DNA from: the human T2T-CHM13v2.0 reference genome, Homo sapiens
Reading direction: 5' to 3' (one strand)
Assembly (NCBI RefSeq): GCF_009914755.1
Contig: NC_060936.1
Length of the DNA: 64,000 bases
Shown here: positions 11,861-55,339 of the stretch, piece after piece
How the letters are laid out: each line of letters starts with the position of its first letter
Numbering within the stretch: position 1 is the first letter of the stretch
Program-made: the position numbers and the translations under genes
The notes under the pieces: generated by a model
Told to the model about the DNA's origin: nothing
What the model saw: only the letters and a program-made list of their open reading frames with translations
Databases searched by the model: none

Positions 11861-12609
11861 TAAGGCAGAGTTCACTAAGCCATATGATTCATTGCCTTGT
11901 TGTTCAATACCTTCCACAAAAGAGTTGCCTAAGCTTGTATATAATCTGAATCAAATCAGAGGATTCAGCAGAAATTCTCTGAACTTGAATAGTCTGGCTT
12001 GTGAAACAGCTGAATATCTAAACATTCCCAAGTTCCCAAATTGTATGTAGACTAAATAATTTGCAACCAGGAATTGTCCTTGTTAGGGAGATTAGTGCTG
12101 AGAATATCCCAATTTGTACACTACTAAGTCCAAGAAACAAATTACATGTCTATTTGCCAGAGCCATGGTTTCCGTATGGCATCATCTCAGATGAGTCAGG
12201 ACCAAAGAGGTCATCAGTATCAGAAATGCAGTGACTGATTTCCTGCACCGTTGAAGGCTGAGAAATAGGATTTGGGAATTGAGCTTTATAGTCCAAATAT
12301 TCCTTCCATCACCTTACCCCCCCATAAATGCATGCACTCAATTGAAGTCAGATTACTCAGGCTGACTATAAAAGGCAAGATTTTCCTGTTTCCATTTTCA
12401 AATATAAAATAGCCACCTATAGGAAATAAAACATGATTCACAGTTAGGTAAATACTCTATTGTTAGTGAGTCAATAAACATGAATCAGTCGTATACTTAT
12501 AAAGACAACCTGAAAGAATTTGAGGCATAGGATAACAAAATAAAAATTAGAGCTAACATCTGTTGAACATTTTGCTGTTCACCAAACATTGCACTAACAA
12601 TATGGAATA

Positions 12610-23684: not shown

Positions 23685-25721
23685 TCCTAGCCAGGGCAAT
23701 CAGACAAGTGAAGGAAATAAAAGGCATCCAAATTGGTAAAGAGGAAGTCAAACTGTTGCTGTTTGCTGATGATATAATGGTATACCTAGAAAACCCTCAA
23801 GACTCGTCCAAAAAGCTCCTAGATCTGAACAACGAATTCAGTAAAGTTTCAGCATACAAAATCAATGTACAAAAATTAATGGCACTGCTATACACCAACA
23901 GTGACCAAGCTGAGAATCAAATCAAGAACTCAACCACTTTTACAACAGCTGCAAAAAAATTAAAATAATTAGGAATACACCTATCCAAAGAGGTCAAAGA
24001 TCTCTATGAGGAAAACTACAAAACACTGCTGAAAGAAATCATAGACAACACAAACAAATGGAAACACATCCCATGTTCATGGATGGGTAGAATCAATATT
24101 GTGAAAATGGCCATACTGCCAAAATCAATCTATAAATTCAATGCAATACCCCTCAAAATACCATCATCATTCTTCACAGAAAGAGAAAAAAAATTCCTAA
24201 AATTCATATGGAAAAAGAAAGCCCACATAGCCACAGCAAGACAAAGCAAAAAGAAATCTAGCGGCATCACATTACCTGACTTCAAGTTATACTCCAAGGT
24301 TATGGTTACCCAAACAGCATGATACTGGTACAAAAACAGGCACATAGACCAATGGAACAGAATGAAGAACCCAGAAATAAAGCCATATACATACAGCCAA
24401 CTGATCTTCCACAAAGCAAACAAAAACATAAAGTAGGGGAGAGGTCACCCTATTCAACAAATGGTGCTGGGATAATTGGCAAGCTCCATGTAGAAGAATG
24501 AAACTGGATCCTCATCTCTCACCTTATACAAAAATAAACTCAAGATGGATCAAAGACTTAAATCTAAGACCTGAAACCATAAAAATTCTAGAAGATAATA
24601 TCAGAAAAACTCTTCTAGACATTGACCTCAGCAAAGTTCATGGCCAAGAACCCAAAAGCAAATGCAACAAAAACAAAGATAAATAGATGGGACTTAATTA
24701 AACTAAAAAGCTTCTGCACAGCAAAAGAAATAATCAGCCAAGTAAACAGAGAACCCACAGAGCGGGAGAAAATATTTGCAAACTATGCATCCAACAAAGG
24801 ACTAGTATCAAGAATCTACAAGAAACTCAAACAAATCAGCAAGAAAAAAAAAAATAAATCATCTCATCAAGAGTGGGCCAAGGACATGAATAGACAATTC
24901 TCAAAAGAAGATATACAAATGGCCAACAAACAGATGAAAAAAATGTTCAACATCACTAATTATCAGGGAAATGCAAATTAAAACTACAATACCATACCAC
25001 CTTACTCCTGTAAGAATGGCCATAATTTGAAAATAAAAAAAAATAGATGTTGGTGGGAATGTAGTAAAATGGGAATACGTTTATACTGCTATGGGAATGT
25101 ACAACCACTATGGCAAACAGTATGGAGATTCCTTAAAAAACTAAAAGTAGAACTACCATTTGATCCAGCAATCCCACTCCTGGGTACCTACCCAGAGGAA
25201 AAGAAGTCATTATATGAAAAAGATACTTACACAGTCTTGTTTATAGCAGCACAATTCATGATTGCAAAAATATGGAACCAGCCTAAATGCCCATCAACCA
25301 AAAAGTGGATTAAGGAAAAGTGGTACATAAATATATACTATGGAATACTACTCGGTCATAAAAAGGAACAAAATAATGTCATTTGCAGCAACCTGGATGG
25401 AGTTGGAGAACATTATTCTAAGTGAAGTAACTCAGGAATGGAAAATCAGACATTGTATGTTCTCACTGATAAGTGCGAGCTAAGCTATGAGGAAGCAAAG
25501 GCATAAGAATGATATAATAAACTCTGGTGTCTTGTGGGGACAGGTGGAAGGGGGGTTGAGAGATAAAAGACTGCACATTGGGTGCAGTGTACACTGTTCG
25601 GGTGATGGGAGCCCCAAAATCTCAGAAATCACACCTAAAGAACTCATCCATGTAACAAAATACCACCTGTTCCCCCAAAACTATTGAAATAATAATAATA
25701 ATAAAAGAAAAAAGAAAAAAT
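23685..25721 (+). mobile_element. LINE-1, L1PB1-like, 5'-truncated (dead ORF2 C-terminal half plus 3'UTR and A-tail)
   Basis: ORF fragments [21 protein letters not shown] (RT motif), [48 protein letters not shown]1PB-type 3'UTR. Imperfect TSD ending CCTCATAG. Confidence 0.95.
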
Positions 25722-25876
25722 AAATATTTCCCTCATAGAAAATACTCTTCATGGTTTTCATACACAGCTCAGAAAGCTAAGTTAAAATGTACTTACTACT
25801 CACATCTTAAAACTTTACACACATGTGAGCATGTCCCAACTCTCAACTCACTGGACAGAGCAAGTGGGGAGCCTGC

Positions 25877-26288
25877 TGTGAGCCAAAAAGTATTTAGATA
25901 GGTCTCAATGAGCTTAGAAGTTTATTTTTCCCAGGATAAGGACGACATGCCCAAGAGAATAGAACACAGAATCACCGAAACAGTGCATGGTCTGTGCCTT
26001 TCTCCAAAGATGATTTTAAGGGCTTCCATATTTAAAGGGAAAAAGGGAGGGTATGGTAACCCACATGTTGCAAGAGAAAAGGAGCAGGTTTGGTAATAGT
26101 CAATTATGTATTCATCTCAAGATAAGATGAACACAGAGTAGCTACCTGTGGTGATATTTAACCTTTTATCTGTAGCTATCTGCTTAGGAACAAAAGGAAA
26201 AGCAGTTTCTGGAGTGACTCAGCTTTCAGCTTAATTTTTTCCTTTTGGCATAGTGAATGGGGTCCTGAGTTTTTATTTTCCTTTCACA
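25877..26288 (-). mobile_element. MER4A1-type ERV1 solo LTR
   Basis: Reverse complement starts TGTGAAAGGAAAATAAAACTCAGGACCCCATTCACTATGCCAAAAGGAAAAAATTAAGCTGAAAGCTGAGTCA. Confidence 0.88.
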
Positions 26289-26934
26289 CCAACCTCCACC
26301 CCAGGTGACATTCACTGTCCCCTCACAGGATCCCAAGTGTCCTTGGTGCCTACAATGGTAGGGTCTGACAACAGTGAGAGTGGTAGAGAAATTCCCAGCA
26401 ACAGCAAGGGAGGAAACAAGGATTCTGTGTCTGCCAGAGAAGGAGGGAGGGGACAGCCTATTTGTGTGAAAAGAACACAATAATAATTAATATGGTTAAT
26501 TATTGCCCAAATCCCTTAGTAGACCAAGAGCCTCTCAAAAACTAGACTATATCTTATTAATCTATGTATTCAGAGAATCAATCATGGCACCTGGCACATA
26601 GTAGGCCGGGTGTTGGAGTAAGCAGAGCAGTTTTTGTATTATATGACATAGTAAAGAAAAAATTCCTGGTCCAACCCTCAGTCAGTGGTTCCAAAACTTC
26701 TCCAGAAAACTGCAATGTGAAATTTAACACTTCAGGGCAGGGGTGTGATTTGCAATTTCAGAATCACAAGCTGTACTGTTCTACTTCAAAATGTCACAAT
26801 GGAAGAAAAAAAATTAAAATTAAAATCTTTTAAAATCGTTTATTTTAAGAAACAGGAGAAAAATCTACTCCCATTAGGAAGAGGTAAAACAACTGAGAAT
26901 CCACGGAGATACGAACAAAACTGTTTTATAAAGA

Positions 26935-27057
26935 TTTTGTACTGGGAAGTTATCTCAGTCATGAAACAGAAGCAAGCTGGCTTCAGCAAAGTCCCTGTAA
27001 AAGCGAGGAGTGGGGGAGCGTTCTGTGCAATCAGCCTCAACCTTCCTGCTCTCCCTG
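26935..27057 (+). repeat. Left arm of a 123-bp inverted repeat (non-TE)
   Basis: Manual alignment to the reverse complement of 27598-27720: ungapped, 113/123 identical. Confidence 0.97.
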
Positions 27058-27483
27058 CAAACACATGTATTTTAAATGCAATGATTTTAGCAAGGGTTTG
27101 AGAACTGTTATTTGTTAGATGAAGACTATGTAATTAAACCCACCGTTCTGAAAGAAAAGCTTTGTGGGTACTTTTTTTTTTTTTTAATCTTCTGTGGCTG
27201 GGCTGGTAATTTTTTCCTGTCTCACACCTACTCAAAACCCAGGGGATTTGTCCTTGATGCCTGGCATGAATATAATTACAGTACAGTTCTCTAGTGCATA
27301 GTTCAATCACAGCAGACAACTATTGATTTGTGTGTAAATCGGAATACATGTAATTTTCTCCAGACGAGGAGTTGTTAAAATGCATTAACAGCCTCGGGTT
27401 TCATGTTTTGGATATGGTGACAGTGGGGGTGTTGGTTGTTTTGCTTTATATTTTTCATTTTCTTTTTTTTCCTTTCCCCCAAG

Positions 27484-27601
27484 AACTGAGATAAGCTCTT
27501 TCTGAGCAGGAAAGCTCCACCGACTTGTTCTGACAAATTCCCATTCCAGTTTCACACTGGGTCACACGCAATCAGAAGAACAACGTAAGCAGGACTTCAG
27601 G
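27484..27601 (+). other. Candidate non-coding/poison cassette exon in the inverted-repeat loop
   Basis: ~40-nt pyrimidine tract then AAG| at 27483. Donors AAC|GTAAGC (27584) and AGG|GTGAGC (27601). Stops in all three frames. Motif evidence only. Confidence 0.35.
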
Positions 27602-27720
27602 GTGAGCAAAAAGGTTGAGGCTGATTGCACAGAACGCTTCCCCTCTCCTTGCTTTTACGGGGACTTTGCTGAAGCCAGCTTACTTCTTTTTCATGACTGA
27701 GATAACTTCCCAGGACAAAA
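27598..27720 (-). repeat. Right arm of a 123-bp inverted repeat (non-TE)
   Basis: Manual alignment to 26935-27057: ungapped, 113/123 identical. Confidence 0.97.
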
Positions 27721-27844
27721 AAATGTGTATTTATTTAATGATCCTAAAAGATTTTGTTTTCACATTTTTCTTTGAGTTGCAATAATAATAACACAAAATG
27801 TTCATTTTCTTCTTGTTTACACAAAACACTCTCTGATTGCTAAG

Positions 27845-28155
27845 AGACCACATAGTATAGTGGAAAAGGACAAAATTAGGCAGCTGAGAAGACCTGGGTA
27901 TGATATCGGGTCTGTCTTGGCCCTGGGGAAGTCACATACCTTCCTTAGGCTAAGGTTTTCTATCTACAAAAGCCGACTGAGCATCAGTGGTTTTCAAATT
28001 GTACACCGTGTATTTAGGGTACAAATTTAGGGAAGGATACTTGGGTCTCTAGGACCCCACTCCCACCACATACTTTAGCCACAACAGGTCAGTTCTTATC
28101 TGTTTACATACTGGATTTCCACAGAGAAAGGGTTTCATATTTTTATATGTTTGAA
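27845..28155 (+). mobile_element. MIR fragment followed by a MER112-like hAT relic (~27985-28155)
   Basis: AGTATAGTGGAAAAG..GACCTGGG..GGGAAGTCAC; CAGTGGTTTTCAAA..TTATCTGTTTACATACTGG..GAAAGGGTT..GTTTGAAAA. Confidence 0.6.
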
Positions 28156-29839
28156 AAAAATCTCTGTCCTTTCCAATTCTCACCTTCCATAATTCTGTGG
28201 CTTTTCTCTGGGATCACAGATAGCTTCAATTTCCTGCAGTACATAAGCTCATTAATGCAGACCACTATACAAAGTGGAAAACTGGTTCATGCATGATGGT
28301 TTTCTCCAATATGATCACCTTCACCATCAAAAATATGCATTTATTAAGCATTCATTCATGCATAGTGCCATGTGCGTTACTTTTCAGCACATGCAAAGTG
28401 TATAGGCTTTGTTTTAAATTTGAGAGGCTGAATGATTTTATAGATTTTGGAAATGAGAAATCCTGATAATTCTTTCAATGTAGTATAGCTATTAAGTAGC
28501 AGAGGCAGTGATAAAAATGAATAATATATTTGAAAATGCTTTTGTAACACAAACTATAATGGTCAATAAGCAATTAAACAGTTTCATCTGGAATCACTGT
28601 TGCCACGGGATATTAATGGTTCCCCATAGTACCAAACAAGAAACTATCGTGGCTCTATGCAAATAAACAGATTTCAACATCCATTCCAAGTCGGAAGTAA
28701 ATCTTCTCAGGAAAAGAGCATCTAAATACCACCTATTACCACAGGCACTGGAAAGAACATTAATCCCCCAGAACATATGATATAAATTCCAAGAGCAAGC
28801 CGCTACTGGGGAAGAGGTGAAATATCGAGTTCAGGTTGGGAACATAGAGATCTGCAGCGTTACACACCCACAGTCAGAATTGGCAATTCACATTGGGAGG
28901 GAGCAAAGCCTACCATAAAAAATTAATGAATGAAAGCCCAGTATTCAAAATGCACTTTAAGCAATACTTAAGCAAAGACTAACACTTAGCAATAAAGATC
29001 ATAAAGCAACAAGGAGATAACTTACAGTTGACCACAGTAATAAAAAGAAATGAACCATATTGGACTACAATAGAAACTGTTACCTTAGCCATACCAGTTG
29101 GTGTTATCACTAGGTCCACTATGAGAAGAAACCAGAGATCGATATTGGCATCAGCTCAAATCTTTTTTATACCATTGTCTATCTACCTTGTTGAAGAAAC
29201 ACTGTCACCAAAGCTAGAATGCAGCTTTTAAAAATCGAGAAACCATAAAGAATAAATACTTATCTAGGTGTCCTTTTTCTACTGTCTATTTTTGCCTTAA
29301 TTTTTCTACTTTGTGAGCTGGTTTGGCCAACAAATTGAACAATTCAATTCTATGCTGAGTCTTTAGATTTAATACAATTCTTGATCTATCGACATTTGCC
29401 AAAACAAAATGGTCCCATGCCTCACAACTAGGATAAAATATAAAATGAGGTTTCCCACCAAAGAGAAATAGCCCAAATACTCCAGTGTTTAAATAATTTT
29501 GAATGCTTTAAGGGGGGACTTTAGAATTCTGATAATCTTATGTACAACCACAAATAACACAATTAGATTTCTTTTCAAATGTTACAGAAATTCGTAAGAG
29601 GTGGCACTAAAGTTATTTAAAATCTACTACCCATCATGGAAGTTAAATTTTTTAAATGTGCACCGTGTAGCATTCAGTACCATAGTACAATCCTCCTTCT
29701 AGGAAATCATGTGGTGAAAGAAAAATCACCTAAAAAGCAGACAGTTCATGGACACCAGTTTGGCTACATCAAGCCATGAGTCTGTGGCTCCTGGAATCAA
29801 TGAAAGAACATCCTGTGGGGTTCATTTCCATCTGAAACC

Positions 29840-36742: not shown

Positions 36743-37130
36743 TGTTATGGGCTAAATTGTGTCCCCCCCAAAATTCACAGGCTGAAGTCCTAATCCCAAG
36801 TACAGTAGAATGTGCCTGTATTTGGAGATAAGGCCTTCAGTGAGGTAACTAAAGTTAAATAAAGTCCCAAGGGCAGGTCCAACCCAATATGACAGCTGTC
36901 CTTATAAGTGGAAGAAATTTGGACACAGACATGTACAGAAGGAAGATCATATAGGGACACACAGAGAAGACAGCCATCTACAAGCCAAAGAGAAAGGCCT
37001 CAGAAGAAACCAATCCTACTGACACTTTGATCTCAAACTTCTAGCCTCCAGGACCGTGAGAAAACAGATGCCTTGTTTAAGCCATCCAGTTTGTGGTACT
37101 TTGTTATTACAGCCCTAGAAAACAAACATA
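36743..37130 (+). mobile_element. MLT1B-like MaLR solo LTR
   Basis: TGTTATGGGCTAAATTGTGTCCCCCCCAAAATTCA ... TTTGTGGTACTTTGTTATTACAGCCCTAG. Confidence 0.88.
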
Positions 37131-40100
37131 AGAAGAGACACCTCTCTCTTGGTTGTGACCTTCGAGGAGAAAATGACATTGCTGCCCTCCATATTCATTG
37201 CTGCTAGAAGGAGGAGTAAGGTGGAAAGCATGCCTCATTCCAGCACACACACAATATCAGTGGCTCACACAGTGTTCCACTATCACCACCCACATGCCCA
37301 GTCCCACTGATACAAGTGGACAGATTTAGGACTTTCACAAGAAGAAAAGCACATTTCTCAGTAAATTAAACTAGATCATCAATGTTTCACCCTTATTTTT
37401 TTCTTTATACTCAAAGAAATATTAACAGCCTAATAAATCTCAGGTAGGTAGCTAAATACCTAAAAATTTTCCAGAGAAAGAGTAAGACCAAATTTACTCT
37501 TGATGTCTTGCCCCTAATCTTAGCACCAGTGACTATTGTACTAGATGTTTCCTCAAAGTTTTTATTCCAGGGGTCCAGCTCAGTATACCCAAGGGAAAGC
37601 AGACTTGGGTATACTCTTTTCAGAGAAGTCTAACATTTGAGCCTGGAACCAAGGCTAGAATTCCTAAGAAGAAAGGCTTACTCATCAGATTTTCACAAAA
37701 CAGCTCAATGCTTTTCATTTTTCCATTTATTTTTCATTTTCATTTTCATTTTTCCATTCATTCACTTTTTCAGGAAATATTTATTGTGCATCTAGTGTGT
37801 GCAAGGTTCTGTAGTAAGGGCCAGAGGTATAAATGATGATAAAGCATCAACATAACAAAAAACCATAAGAATTGTCCCCCCAGAAAGCTAGAGCATGAGG
37901 ATTTCTAAGAAAAGGGAAGAGTGAGAAATCACAGAAATCAAAAATTTAGGATTATGAGAGAAAAAACATTCCAAAGATCAGCTGCCCTATTTTTTCCAGG
38001 ACATTTTATCAGTTCAGGAAATCAAAATAAAAATATCACATCATTTGAACAGATATTCAGATGTGATGGGCAAACTATAGTCGTGTGACAGCTCACAAAG
38101 AGAGATAAATATTTTCCTCTGCCTCCTTCCCTCTCTGACAAATATGCTGATCGGCTCCTTTGCAACTCCCCCAAATACATACTATTTACATTCATTGAAG
38201 ACAGCCAAATCGTTTTACAAGTGTATTTCAGTGTTTTGAATCTTCTAACATCAGGCAATCCCTGTTACTTTCTTTGAAACAAGTTTCCACTATGCAGAGA
38301 GAATAAATAAACACACTCTGTGCTGTTAGCAGGTTCACTCTGTTGTCTGGGTTGCGGGGAATGGAGGTGGTGGCAGTGGCAGCACTGATGGCGATGGCCG
38401 GGCTCAACCCGAAGGGAACAGTGCTGCTTTTTCTTGCAGCCCTGGGAGAGAATCGCAGAGTGCTGCAGGAAGAGGGAAGATCCTGAACCCACTCAAGAGA
38501 GCGCCTCAAGGGCAATGGTGTTCTCTCTTCAGGCACGTGATCGGGAACAAAGGAATCTTTATTCATCTCTTTCTGCTGTACTGGTTTGCTTTATATTCCT
38601 TATAAGCAGCTGAAAAAGACCATGAGCAGCCCTTTCAATCAGCTGAGGAAGAGATGAAAGGTTTCAGAAGAGAGAAGCTGTCAATTCTGAGAATGGTTTA
38701 TTCACATTATAGAATAATCTTTCAAGAAAAGAACTCTACAGGACTGATCTTTTAATTATAGAGGGATAAATACATCTGTGAAATCTACCAATTTCACTTT
38801 GGATTAAATACTCTTACTAAAAGCCAGATATTCAGTAAACAAAGATCTCAATTTGGAAATGGCTTTTCTCCCTAATACGTGTCTTCTAGCTAACGTCCTA
38901 CCCCATTCCACCCCCAAATTCTAGTTGCTATTTGAGAAACAAAAATACATAACCTATTAGAGATGGAGTTTGAGGGTCTTAGATATGTTTCATTTGCTAC
39001 CAAGCAAGCTCTGGATTCTCAAAAATGTTGATCAATTATCTGTGAATAATTTTAAGATCACAGTGTCTTATAGGGAATATTTTTTGATTTATCAAAGAAT
39101 CTCAACATATTTAATCCTATGCACAAATCACATCCCAGCTGTGGTTGAGAAATACAAGCAAGAATCACAGTTAGAGTCTTTGGTGTACCTTCACGGTGCC
39201 AAAGACAGGGTGGACAAAGATACACACTCCATAAATATTTATTTACAGAAATGACATTGTTCATAATTCCAGAAATTCCACCAAAATTTTAAATTGCAAT
39301 TTCTTCTAGTTCTTTTTGGATGTAAAACAAGCATAGAAACAGTGCCTGGCTCCTAGCTGGTTGTGTCTTTCCTGGCTCATTTTTTATGTAGTGCCTCTGA
39401 CTAAAACAGCCCAGAAGCAATTCTCTTGTCCACAAACAAGGGAGCCAACAGCTTTCTGTGGCCCTTTTCCATCTCCCAGTATTCTGGATGAGTCAACCCT
39501 CTTCCTTGGGGGTTTCTGGAGACTTTTGCAAGTGCCCATTTCAGAAAATCCCATTTCCACTTGAAGTATTTATCCCAGAAAAAGAAAAGATTAAAGAAAA
39601 AGAAAACCCTGAGTTTTCTCAAAAACTATTTATTTGCCATTGATGTTCCTGCTTACGTTTTGTGGAAATCCTTCTCTAACTTGATATTTACACAATATTG
39701 TAACATCTCCTTTTTGTGTTATTTCTTAACTTTGAAATAAATGGAGATTCTTTAATAGATGACATTTAGACAGATGTCATTCCAACAGTAGGCTGATTCT
39801 TCCTATTACTTAGAAATTGTTTAAATTCTGAGGCATTCTCATTTATGTCTATTGGCATCAGTTAACCTGTGGTTCCAAAAGCTAGTGCCAAGTTTTGGTT
39901 CTTCCTGTTTGCAAAATCAACCTTTCCCCATGTCAGCTGTTCCTAGGGTGGAGGCGGTCACAGAGTTCCCAGCAACACTTCTTGTCAATGTACCCTGTGG
40001 CGAACATCTCTTCTGTTCCCTAGATCTCATCCCTAGATCATTGTCCATTCTTCTCAGATGCTTCCCTCAGCATTCAGGGCCCAGGCTCCAGGAATCAACA

Positions 40101-49100: not shown

Positions 49101-51303
49101 TTCAAGCCTCTGGAAAATCTCACTATTCTTTTTTATAATATAAACAACATGACATGGCATTATTTATGAAATGCAATCACAATACTATTTCATTTAATCC
49201 CGTGGGAATCATTATTAACTTCATTTTATAGCTGAGAAAACAGACAGTATAAGTGATTTGTCAGGACCACACAGCCAGTGAGTGCTGGAGGTTAGAACAG
49301 CGGGATGTGGCAGACCTCAAAAGTCAGAGTCCTGATTTGAAATAGATGTTTTAAAAGAAAAAAAAATAGATACGATATTTACTGCAGTAAAGTCTTTAGG
49401 TTTCTTCAATTGGCAGCTGTAAAAATAAAAGCATAATTCTCACACTGGTCTAATTAAAAACGGCCAAGTACAATTGTTCATGGCTAATTACCTCTGTCAG
49501 ACCAAATGGAGAGTCATACAATTCATGAGACAGTCCATTAGACCTAATTAAGGGAAATTATTTCGAGACGACTCTGAGGCAATATTAGAGGATGTTTTAT
49601 GCTAAGATTTCTAAAATGTTTTGTAGCAAATACAGCTTATGAACCAAAGGAGAAACCACAAAACTGCAACTCTGATCTAGAGCGATTCAAACACTCAGTC
49701 TGCCCCATCCTCTCTTCTCCCCTAACTCCAGGGAGGGGTTGGCCCTAAAGATTTTCTGTCAGTCATCGAAGTGTCTTTTCTGTATGACATTAAAGTTATT
49801 ATTTGTACTATTAAATAGTAAGCAGGAAAATTCCTTTGAGCTCCACGTGTAACATTTACTCTTCTAGACAAAGGGCAAAACCACCTAAAGAATTGTCAGC
49901 CCGAAGACACAAAGATGAACAATGAACTCTCTGCTTCTCAGTTTAGACAACAGAGGCACTGCAGGCCAAATTCACATCATGACACATGACACACAAACGT
50001 TCTCTTCAATCTCCTTTAAAAGAAAATAGAGCAGAGGCTTTCTTGCATCTCCCTTTGACTGGCGGGGAGACATTCAATAACGCCTTGCTCCATCCCTGTA
50101 CTACCCAGCTTTCGAAGTGTCACAGGTGAGAAAGTTAACCAGTGAAGGACAACCGAGCAGCTGTGGGAAACAGAGAGGAGAGGAAGCAGGGGCCGGGGAT
50201 AAACAATTGCAGGGTCACTGGAACGTTGTCCTCCATCCACTCTGACAGATGAAAGGCTGACAGGCCCACTATTTGTGGTACAGAGGTCACAATGCCCCAT
50301 GATTAACTGTGCCGAAAGCGTACTTAAATCCGAGATGTCCTGCACAAATAGGAAAGCATTGTCCTCACTCACCTCAGTGGAGGCTGTCAGATGCCCAAAC
50401 TATTCTGGCTTCCTTGTCTCAGTAATACTTTTCAAAAACCCATGAAACTCAAAGGGATCTGAATCCACAAGATCATATTTTTCAGAACCAAATACCAGAA
50501 CTTGAAGTCCATCAAAGGTGTGTTGTTGTTTTATTTTTTATTTGCATGAAAAGTTGTGTATGACTACGTAACCAAGTTGCATTGGTATAGATTCTAAAAA
50601 TCACTTATATTAAATAGAATAAAATCACATGAGGTAGATGCTGCCCTAGAAAACCCAGGGTATGCAGCCTTCAGGAAATCAAAATAGTAAAAGTATTGCA
50701 GATTTGCCTCTGTGAAGTTTGGTAGAGACCATTTCTACTCCCCACAACAGTAGAACATTCAAAACAGGATCATATACATTGAAAAAAAAGGAACCTTCAT
50801 TTAGACATTTCCCTGACTCCCCCATTAAAACACAGACTCTATGGAGACAAATAAAATGTCGATTTCTCTGATAACTTTCTCACAAGATTTATAGTGCTTT
50901 ATATATGCTATAGACAATACTAATATGTGTTTATTTGATGCATTGTTTGAGACTGTGGTAGAATCTTTACCAGAGAAAGAACAAATTGTTACAAGTTTGA
51001 GTTTATATTTGGGTTACAAATCTAGAAAATTTACTCTGTGGGAAGGGAAATATATTCACCCATGATTCTGTGAGCTGTCCTTGTCAGCATGTCAATATAA
51101 TCAGCTCCCCTGGCTCATCTAGAAAAGTCAGTAAGTCTGGGATCACAAAGAACAAGAATCCCAAGAGGGACTCAGGTACCCCACTGGAAATTAGAGAGTA
51201 CATAAAGAAATAATCAATTAGACAGTGAAGCTGTGAAGCAGAAAGGACACTCTATACTCCCAGTCCGTGGCGTCCTATGAGACCAGTAAAACCACAAGAG
51301 CCC

Positions 51304-51634
<331 letters not shown>

Positions 51635-54185: not shown

Positions 54186-54555
<370 letters not shown>

Positions 54556-55339
54556 GGATTATTTTTTAACTTTGCCAATTTTATTGGCTAAACTAAAATA
54601 CTAATATTTGAGACTTTTTCTTTTTAAGTTCAGGGAGCAATATTATTTGTAGCACAGTCATGGCTGATGTACTCAGAGCATAGAGGAAGAATTACATCTG
54701 CCCTGGATGGTCTTAGCTTTATTCCCCCACAATGACATGATATTGCTGATTCATGATCAGCAATGATCATGATCGTTGATCATAGATCAGCCCTGACCCA
54801 CAGGTCTTTTAAAGCAGTGATGGTGGCTAGCCAATTCTATAATTATTTTTATGGTTTATATAAGTCCTTACTCTCACCCTTATATAATTGGATTTCATCC
54901 TGTTTGCCTAGGGTTGTGCTTCCTATTTAATAATATCACACTGGTCTGTTTGATGTTACATCACCTATAGGCTAAATAAGCACACCTTCAACACCTTTAG
55001 TCAAGACGTCAATGATTCCAAGGGCGATAAGACCACTTGACATTTGCCCCTCACATTGATACCAGGTCATTGGAAACTACGCTTCTGGGAGAATCATCAG
55101 GGAAATGTTCTACTTGCCTAATCACAGAAACTCTACAACTAGACTCTGGCTAAACAGAACATAAATTATACTGAAATCAATAAAGACAGGGTGAGCAAAA
55201 AGCCTTTGTCATGATTAAGAGTGTATGCACTTGCAGTTACATATCTGGGTTAAATGCCAACTCCTCCATTTGCTGTCTATATAACCCTAGGCAACTACTT
55301 CCACATGTCTAAGCTTTTCACACATAAAACAGATTTATA

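What the first reader, a model, noticed from the sequence alone, without database searches (positions are those of the whole stretch)
26935..27720. Non-TE 123-bp inverted repeat (92% identical, ungapped) around a 540-bp unique loop
Seen: 26935-27057 aligns without gaps to the reverse complement of 27598-27720 with 10 mismatches, including perfect runs of about 20-28 bp. The arms are complex sequence that retains CpGs and matches no SINE, LINE, LTR or MITE I recognise. If transcribed, it would fold into a ~120-bp stem on either strand; 3 mismatches become G-U pairs on the + strand and 3 others on the - strand, so strand is not resolved. Known: duplexes this long are substrates for ADAR, Dicer and Staufen, and intronic inverted repeats drive exon skipping and back-splicing. 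Inference: it is (a) a constrained long-range RNA duplex, (b) an inverted duplicated enhancer homogenised by gene conversion, or (c) an uncatalogued long-TIR element. It is the only long non-Alu self-complementary structure I found in 64 kb.
Basis: partly seen in the sequence, partly recalled or inferred. Interest (0 to 1): 0.85.

Follow-up and report, generated by a model that had tools for sequence, protein, structure and literature searches.

The report
Single-copy inverted duplication, human chr12 desert
A 123-base stretch in a gene-poor part of human chromosome 12 is repeated in reverse orientation 540 bases away; it is real and not a transposon, but it looks like an old copying accident decaying at the neutral rate, not a working element.

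Summary
Window 26935-27057 pairs without gaps with the reverse complement of 27598-27720: 113 of 123 positions match, around a 540-nt spacer.

It is not a transposon.
- Arms, spacer and both flanks are single-copy in the T2T human genome. The same tool found neighbouring repeats at 74-87% identity.
- There is no target-site duplication.
- The repeat ends sharply, with no homology beyond the arms.

Nothing in the sequence points to selection.
- The 10 mismatches are evenly spread.
- Six are transitions and four are transversions.
- Two lie at CpGs.
- Three give G-U wobbles on each strand, so neither strand is favoured.
- Rfam has no match.
- The one ORF over arm L is broken in arm R.
- No gene is annotated in the window.

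Best reading (0.6): a one-step inverted duplication, by replication template switch or break repair, in a primate ancestor. The arm divergence (K2P 0.086) suggests about 40 million years, within a range of 20-80. It has since decayed neutrally.

Conservation in other species, transcription, RNA editing and chromatin state could not be tested here. Non-repetitive inverted repeats of this size are already catalogued genome-wide (PMC11838218). Interest is low to moderate.

The parts
26935..27057 (.). Left arm of the inverted repeat (123 nt, GC 0.50, 2 CpG)
   Evidence: In the genome it matches only itself and the right arm. The sequence-only model R1 finds only the two arms in the window.
27058..27597 (.). 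Unique 540-nt spacer (GC 0.38, 7 CpG). It holds a T-run at about 27170-27186 and a pyrimidine-rich stretch at about 27439-27480.
   Evidence: Single-copy in the genome. No internal copy of the arms. Only a weak TTTTTC tract by Tandem Repeats Finder.
27598..27720 (.). Right arm, the reverse complement of the left arm (113 of 123 identical, GC 0.47, 2 CpG)

Best explanation
This is a single-copy inverted micro-duplication of ordinary intergenic DNA. One mutational event copied a 123-nt stretch in reverse-complement orientation about 540 nt away. Candidate mechanisms are a template switch of the replicating strand within one fork (the 'four-point' model), microhomology-mediated break-induced replication, or a small inversion with staggered breaks.

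The two copies were identical at birth and have since drifted apart at about the neutral rate. That places the event in a primate ancestor, roughly 40 million years ago with a range of 20-80.

It has no demonstrated function. If the region is ever transcribed, the arms would form a duplex of about 120 bp. At the DNA level the arms could occasionally mediate inversion of the spacer.

Shown here: the repeat, its uniqueness, the missing transposon hallmarks, and the unbiased mismatch pattern. Inferred: the mechanism, the age and the neutrality.
For: 1. Uniqueness. The arm query finds 2 of 2 candidates, namely itself and its partner. The spacer finds 1 of 1, itself. Each flank finds only itself. 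A 25-mer from the arm end, allowing up to 3 mismatches, finds the two arms plus one 3-mismatch site elsewhere on chr12; my own calculation puts the chance expectation for such a pattern at about one site. The reversed-pattern control finds none.

2. Positive control. The same tool, given 25500-29200, reported 52 matches from the 40 candidates it scored out of 4649. These are repeat copies at 74-87% identity mapping to window 25500-25742 and 25877-26296, plus the two arm-arm matches.

3. No target-site duplication of 4 nt or more at any end offset of +-6.

4. Sharp, ungapped boundaries, with no weaker homology beyond the arms.

5. Mismatch pattern as expected without selection:
- 6 transitions and 4 transversions.
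- 2 of 10 at CpG sites.
- 2 of 6 CpGs decayed.
- Longest perfect run 28, against a simulated mean of 32 (P = 0.65).
- G-U-compatible changes split 3:3 between strands.

6. The reading frame open over arm L has a stop in arm R, and the ORF has no Pfam match.

7. Rfam has nothing in the element.

8. Template switching is documented to create inverted repeats, with or without an inverted spacer, in one step in human and chimp (PMC5453318, passages read).
Against: No other vertebrate genome was available, so neither neutrality nor the age was tested against orthologues.

The arms are richer in G+C (0.47-0.50) than the spacer and flanks (0.36-0.39). The element's CpG observed/expected ratio (0.32) is above the window mean (0.19), though only at the 88th percentile. 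Both could reflect a regulatory element or GC-biased conversion.

Documented template-switch events are mostly tens of bases long (PMC5453318, PMC8755829). A 123-nt copy placed 540 nt away is at the large end.

No microhomology can be seen at the junctions. After this much divergence, that says little either way.
Confidence: 0.6

Rival explanations
1. A regulatory DNA module (enhancer or silencer) was duplicated in inverted orientation. Both copies are kept similar by purifying selection and/or gene conversion, so the duplication is older than the arm divergence suggests.
For: The arms have higher G+C than their surroundings, and the CpG observed/expected ratio is mildly raised. The 1.5 kb around the repeat has no young transposon insertions. 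RefSeq lists two silencer elements elsewhere in the window (hub annotation), so the desert is not inert.
Against: Mismatches are evenly spread, with no conversion-like patches (P = 0.65). The longest perfect run is 28 nt, which from my recollection is well below the homology usually needed for efficient mammalian gene conversion. CpG decay (2 of 6) is about what neutral decay predicts for this divergence. No functional element is annotated at the locus. The two RefSeq silencers show no similarity to the arms (one search lists no hit there).
Confidence: 0.17
2. A functional long hairpin RNA: a transcript through the locus folds into a stem of about 120 bp and is used by ADAR, Dicer or Staufen, or steers splicing of an unannotated transcript.
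For: The predicted duplex is strong: arm-arm duplex energies of -218.1 (+ strand) and -213.5 (- strand) kcal/mol, and whole-element MFE of -337.2 and -334.5. Its size, pairing and loop (123 bp, 92%, 540 nt) resemble the medians of edited non-repetitive dsRNAs in a genome-wide catalogue (144 bp, 87.5%, 509 nt; PMC11838218 Table 1).
Against: No gene or lncRNA is annotated in the 64-kb window (hub annotation). Wobble-compatible mismatches split 3:3 between strands, and 7 of 10 mismatches disrupt pairing on either strand, so there is no sign of selection for pairing. Rfam has no match. In the catalogue, most predicted non-repetitive dsRNAs are unedited (492,832 of 497,429).
Confidence: 0.08
3. A DNA transposon or MITE-like element with long terminal inverted repeats. 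It would be either a lone insertion or an ancient, exapted copy whose termini stayed similar.
For: The architecture, long inverted ends around a unique core, is transposon-like. The genome search is blind to very old families: the stretch from 27845 that I recognise from memory as MIR-like found no relatives.
Against: Ends that are 92% identical imply a recent insertion. Sister copies would then be under about 10% diverged and easily found, yet none exists (and 7 as positive control). There is no target-site duplication of 4 nt or more at any offset. No transposase-like ORF is present: 5 ORFs of 30 aa or more overlap 26700-27950. Only the longest, 100 aa, was scanned, and it had no Pfam hit.
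Confidence: 0.04

Closest known systems
Inverted repeats created by local template switching during replication (four-point model; Loytynoja and Goldman 2017, PMC5453318; passages read)
   Same: A reverse-complement copy of nearby sequence, made in one step and leaving an ungapped inverted repeat with a spacer. It is single-copy, has no target-site duplication, and can fold as a hairpin.
   Different: Events documented between human and chimp are mostly tens of bases long with short spacers. This one has 123-nt arms and a 540-nt spacer and is far older, so its junctions can no longer be read. Origin by this route is inferred, not shown.
Non-repetitive predicted dsRNAs of the human genome (dsRNAscan; Andrews and Bass, PMC11838218; summary, passages and Tables 1-2 read, supplements not seen)
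   Same: An inverted repeat outside annotated repeats, intergenic, with size, pairing and loop close to that catalogue's edited non-repetitive class.
   Different: It falls below their putative MDA5-substrate threshold (over 300 bp and over 96% paired).
Human long inverted repeats (LIRs) as catalogued with Lirex and IRF (PMC5414712, passages read). Wang and Leung 2006 and 2009 were seen only as citations there and in PMC4319165.
   Same: It meets the quoted 'recombinogenic LIR' thresholds: stem over 30 bp, identity over 85%, spacer under 2 kb. The Lirex demonstration table lists a repeat of very similar size (122 nt, 4.7% mismatch, 811-nt spacer).
   Different: Most catalogued LIRs come from Alu or other repeats; this one does not. 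It is intergenic, not intronic.
Inverted Alu pairs
   Same: Closely spaced inverted repeats able to form long duplexes. They account for 18 of the 20 inverted pairs in the 264 kb examined.
   Different: Each Alu-like arm has 69-79 other matches in the 264 kb. The arms here have only each other.
MITEs and non-autonomous DNA transposons with long TIRs
   Same: Inverted ends around a short unique core.
   Different: No target-site duplication, no other copies and no family.

Membership tests
Class II DNA transposon / MITE with long TIRs | Terminal inverted repeats | tested here: met
   123-nt arms, 92% identical.
Class II DNA transposon / MITE with long TIRs | Target-site duplication directly outside the TIRs | tested here: not met
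   No direct repeat of 4-12 nt at any combination of end offsets +-6. A 2-nt TA duplication cannot be tested statistically.
Class II DNA transposon / MITE with long TIRs | Multiple dispersed copies of similar age in the genome | tested here: not met
   Arms, spacer and flanks are single-copy. The tool finds other repeats at 74-87% identity.
Class II DNA transposon / MITE with long TIRs | Match to a catalogued family (Dfam/Repbase) | not testable with these tools
   No eukaryotic repeat library is on hand.
Template-switch / break-repair inverted duplication | Reverse-complement copy of a nearby single-copy segment, ungapped, with sharp ends | tested here: met
   ungapped, with no homology beyond either end. 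The spacer is 540 nt.
Template-switch / break-repair inverted duplication | Outgroup genomes carry only one arm (or the spacer in the other orientation) | not testable with these tools
Template-switch / break-repair inverted duplication | Microhomology at the switch points | tested here: inconclusive
   No shared bases beyond the arm ends. With about 4% change per arm, junctions of 1-3 nt cannot be read.
Functional long hairpin RNA (hpRNA, ADAR or Dicer substrate) | Transcription through both arms on one strand | not testable with these tools
   No expression data are available here. The hub annotation lists no gene in the window.
Functional long hairpin RNA (hpRNA, ADAR or Dicer substrate) | Substitutions biased towards keeping pairs on the transcribed strand | tested here: not met
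   3 wobbles on the + strand and 3 on the - strand. 7 of 10 mismatches are unpaired on either strand.
Functional long hairpin RNA (hpRNA, ADAR or Dicer substrate) | Membership of a curated RNA family | tested here: not met
   Rfam 15 at E up to 1 over 26000-28700 gave one chance-level hit, outside the element (RT-3, 17 bits against a gathering score of 40.5, at 27781-27919).
Conserved non-coding element / conserved dsRNA | Both arms conserved across primates and vertebrates | not testable with these tools
   No alignments or phastCons scores are available.
Inverted Alu/SINE pair | Arms belong to a high-copy SINE family | tested here: not met
   The left arm has 1 other match in 264 kb, against 69-79 for the Alu-like pairs.

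The most novel reading that the evidence does not exclude
The two arms are an anciently conserved palindromic module, kept alike by selection: either a paired regulatory element or the stem of an unannotated hairpin transcript. This would be a rare non-repeat, deeply conserved duplex of about 120 bp in a gene desert, possibly acting on PHLDA1 or KRR1. Those gene names and their position near this locus are recalled; no call gave them. Nothing in the human sequence alone excludes this, because the decisive comparison with other species could not be run.
Probability: 0.08. Interest if true: 0.7.

Novelty: new member of a known kind. Interest (0 to 1): 0.22.

Why it matters
As it stands, it matters little. 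It is one well-preserved example of how replication or repair errors create hairpin-capable DNA from unique sequence, raw material from which new hairpin RNAs can arise. A preprint on de novo miRNAs from template switching (10.1101/2023.04.19.537475) turned up in the search listing only.

It could serve as a clean dating and mechanism case if primate orthologues show the empty state.

It would matter more if both arms proved conserved beyond primates, or if the locus were transcribed and edited. It would then be a rare non-repeat long dsRNA.

At the DNA level it meets the published thresholds for 'recombinogenic' long inverted repeats. The 540-nt spacer could therefore be polymorphic in orientation.

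Tried and rejected
- **Transposon with long TIRs.** Rejected: no copies and no target-site duplication.
- **Coding exon.** Rejected. The 100-aa ORF at 26799-27101 has a stop in the same frame in arm R and no Pfam hit.
- **Known RNA family.** None.
- **Further degenerate copies of the arm nearby.** None. The sequence-only model over the whole window with filters off gave a next-best E of 0.3. Sensitive blastn against 264 kb gave nothing.
- **Extended, gapped homology beyond the arms.** None.
- **Assembly artefact.** Considered and rejected by inference only. I expect a fold-back artefact to give a perfect palindrome with no spacer, whereas this repeat has 8% divergence and a 540-nt spacer.
- **Base rate from a 1-Mb genome sample.** The sample of 264 kb is therefore too small for a rate: 0 comparable non-repeat pairs in the 200 kb outside the window.
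- **Whole-genome search with a profile of the arms.** Not accepted by the tool.
- **Wang and Leung 2009.** Not held in the library.
- **Supplementary tables of PMC11838218** (conserved and long dsRNA lists). Closed.
- **Full-text search for a 25-mer of the arm.** 0 papers.
- **AT-skew change across the spacer.** Noted, but the strong positive skew upstream may simply reflect the repeat content there. No conclusion was drawn.

Full report
**Observation**

The repeat is there exactly as described. The repeat finder reports arms 26935-27057 and 27598-27720: 123 nt, 92% complementary, 540 nt apart. A base-by-base comparison gives 10 mismatches and no gap.

A gapped, low-stringency comparison of 26000-28700 with its own reverse complement finds no further homology outside the arms. 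The next best pair is a 36-nt A/T-rich match at E = 0.022, and it is not colinear. The boundaries are therefore sharp.

The match is far beyond chance: E = 1.0e-42 in a search of the whole 3.1-Gb genome.

Three mismatches become G-U on the + strand and three others on the - strand. On either strand seven stay unpaired (mismatch list; folds).

Within the window, one search lists 22 nearby inverted pairs (arm of 60 nt or more, spacer up to 5 kb). Apart from this one, most arms are 170-320 nt and fall in the stretches the hub lists as masked, so they look like Alu pairs.

**Is it a repeat family?**

The window lies in the T2T-CHM13 human assembly, which could be searched.
- The left arm finds two places only, itself and the right arm (2 candidates, 2 scored).
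- The 540-nt spacer finds itself only.
- The 638 nt to the left and the 980 nt to the right find themselves only.
- A 25-mer from the outer end of the arm, with up to three mismatches, finds the two arms plus one 3-mismatch site 3.6 Mb away. My own calculation puts the chance expectation for such a pattern at about one site. The reversed-pattern control finds none.

As a positive control, 25500-29200 was given to the same tool. It reported 52 matches from the 40 candidates it scored out of 4649. These are repeat copies at 74-87% identity mapping to window 25500-25742 and 25877-26296, plus the arm-arm pair.

The tool is not sensitive to very old families. A stretch from 27845 that I recognise from memory as MIR-like found nothing. 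This does not rescue the transposon reading. Ends that are 92% alike imply a recent insertion, so sister copies would be easy to find.

Three further checks agree.
- There is no target-site duplication of 4-12 nt at any end offset of +-6.
- A sequence-only profile of the two arms, run over the whole window with filters off, finds only the arms; the next best hit has E = 0.3.
- Sensitive blastn of 25400-29400 against 264 kb of contiguous sequence gives no hit to the element other than arm to arm.

**Signs of selection**

I looked for any and found none.
- The mismatches are 6 transitions and 4 transversions. The K2P distance is 0.086.
- Their spacing fits random placement: the longest perfect run is 28, against a simulated mean of 32 (P = 0.65 in 20000 simulations). 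There are no conversion-like patches.
- Three CpG sites can be traced in the arms. Of the six copies, four survive and two have decayed to TpG or CpA.
- From what I recall of primate CpG transition rates, roughly ten times the average, a per-arm non-CpG divergence of 3.4% (8 of 117 sites between the arms) predicts that about a third to a half would be lost. 'Retains CpGs' is therefore not evidence of constraint.
- The element's CpG observed/expected ratio (0.32) is above the window's (0.19), but only at the 88th percentile of 786-nt tiles.
- The arms have higher G+C (0.50 and 0.47) than the spacer (0.38) and flanks (0.39 and 0.36). This is the one feature that leans towards a regulatory element or biased conversion.
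- The wobble-compatible changes show no strand preference (3:3).
- A 100-codon ORF crosses arm L. The same frame has a stop in arm R, and the ORF has no Pfam match.
- Rfam gives nothing inside the element.
- According to the hub's annotation, no gene lies in the window and no functional element is at the locus.

**Best explanation**

This is a one-step inverted duplication of unique intergenic DNA that has since decayed neutrally. Local template switching at a replication fork is documented to create inverted repeats, with or without an inverted spacer, in human and chimpanzee (PMC5453318, passages read). Break-induced replication has been proposed for related small inversions flanked by inverted repeats (PMC8755829, abstract and passages read). 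Those events are mostly tens of bases long, so this one is large for the class, and its origin by this route is inferred.

With K = 0.086 between the arms and a long-term catarrhine rate of about 1.0-1.2e-9 per site per year (recalled), the age is about 40 million years. By my own calculation, the binomial uncertainty on 10 of 123 mismatches widens this to roughly 20-80 million years.

This predicts that apes and Old World monkeys carry both arms, and that more distant mammals carry one.

**Context**

Inverted repeats of this kind are a catalogued class.
- A genome-wide scan predicted 5,134,754 inverted-repeat dsRNAs in the human genome, of which 497,429 are non-repetitive.
- The 4,597 edited non-repetitive ones have medians of 144 bp, 87.5% paired and a 509-nt loop (PMC11838218, summary, passages and Table 1 read).
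- The present repeat (123 bp, 92%, 540 nt; arm-arm duplex energy -218 kcal/mol) sits with that stronger class.
- It falls below their putative MDA5-substrate threshold of over 300 bp and over 96% paired.
- That paper's 'non-repetitive' label, as described in the passage read, excludes simple repeats, LTRs, LINEs, Alus and other SINEs.
- The repeat also meets the quoted thresholds for 'recombinogenic' long inverted repeats: stem over 30 bp, identity over 85%, spacer under 2 kb (PMC4319165 and PMC5414712, passages read).
- The Lirex demonstration table lists a 122-nt repeat with 4.7% mismatch and an 811-nt spacer in a 200-kb example region.
- In my own small sample, 264 kb of contiguous sequence holds 20 inverted pairs (arm 60 nt or more, identity 80% or more, spacer up to 2 kb). 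Eighteen are Alu-like (69-79 other matches). One is a 62-nt low-copy pair. This is the only one whose arms match nothing but each other.
- The sample is too small, and was ascertained through this finding, so it gives no usable genome-wide rate.

**What remains open**

Conservation in other species, transcription, editing, small RNAs, chromatin state and population polymorphism could not be examined. No vertebrate genome other than this assembly and no functional data were on hand. A full-text search for a 25-mer of the arm found no paper. This shows only that the string is not printed in the searched library.

**Verdict**

The finding is real, single-copy, not a transposon and not an artefact. 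It is most likely a neutral relic of a primate-lineage inverted duplication (0.6). Rivals:
- A regulatory duplicate under selection or conversion (0.17).
- A functional hairpin RNA (0.08).
- A transposon (0.04).

Interest is low to moderate. It would rise sharply only if the arms prove conserved beyond primates or if the locus is transcribed and edited.

Noticed in passing
window 51302-51620 and 54242-54557: Two Alu-sized (about 319 nt) masked repeats in inverted orientation are 92.5% identical across a 2.6-kb spacer. The other Alu-like inverted pairs in the window are 73-86% identical. They are probably two young Alus. This is the strongest potential long duplex in the window if it is transcribed.
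   Followed up: no
window 27845-27950 and about 28259-28281: A stretch that I recognise from memory as the 5' part of a MIR-like SINE begins about 125 nt right of the repeat. A 23-nt direct match to its start lies 414 nt further on. Rfam gives only a chance-level hit here (RT-3, E = 0.49). The genome search found no relatives, which shows that tool's blindness to old repeats.
   Followed up: partly
window 25500-25742 and 25877-26296: Two interspersed repeats lie just left of the locus, with many genomic copies at 74-87% identity. Their families were not named, because no repeat library was available.
   Followed up: no
window 24000-29250: AT skew is strongly positive at 24000-25500 (0.2-0.49). 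It turns negative across the spacer and right flank (27000-28500, down to -0.22) and is positive again at 28500-29250. This may only reflect repeat content and orientation. No conclusion was drawn about an inversion.
   Followed up: no
window 12081-12375 and 37090-37384: The two RefSeq 'silencer' features are both 295 nt long. They share no sequence similarity with each other (best 9-nt match, E = 0.37) or with the arms.
   Followed up: partly
window -12314..-12253 and -11275..-11214 (G000 C12:75813686-75814786, locus L022): A 62-nt inverted pair (82% identical, 977-nt spacer) with only 3 other matches in the 264 kb. It is the only other low-copy inverted pair in the sample.
   Followed up: no
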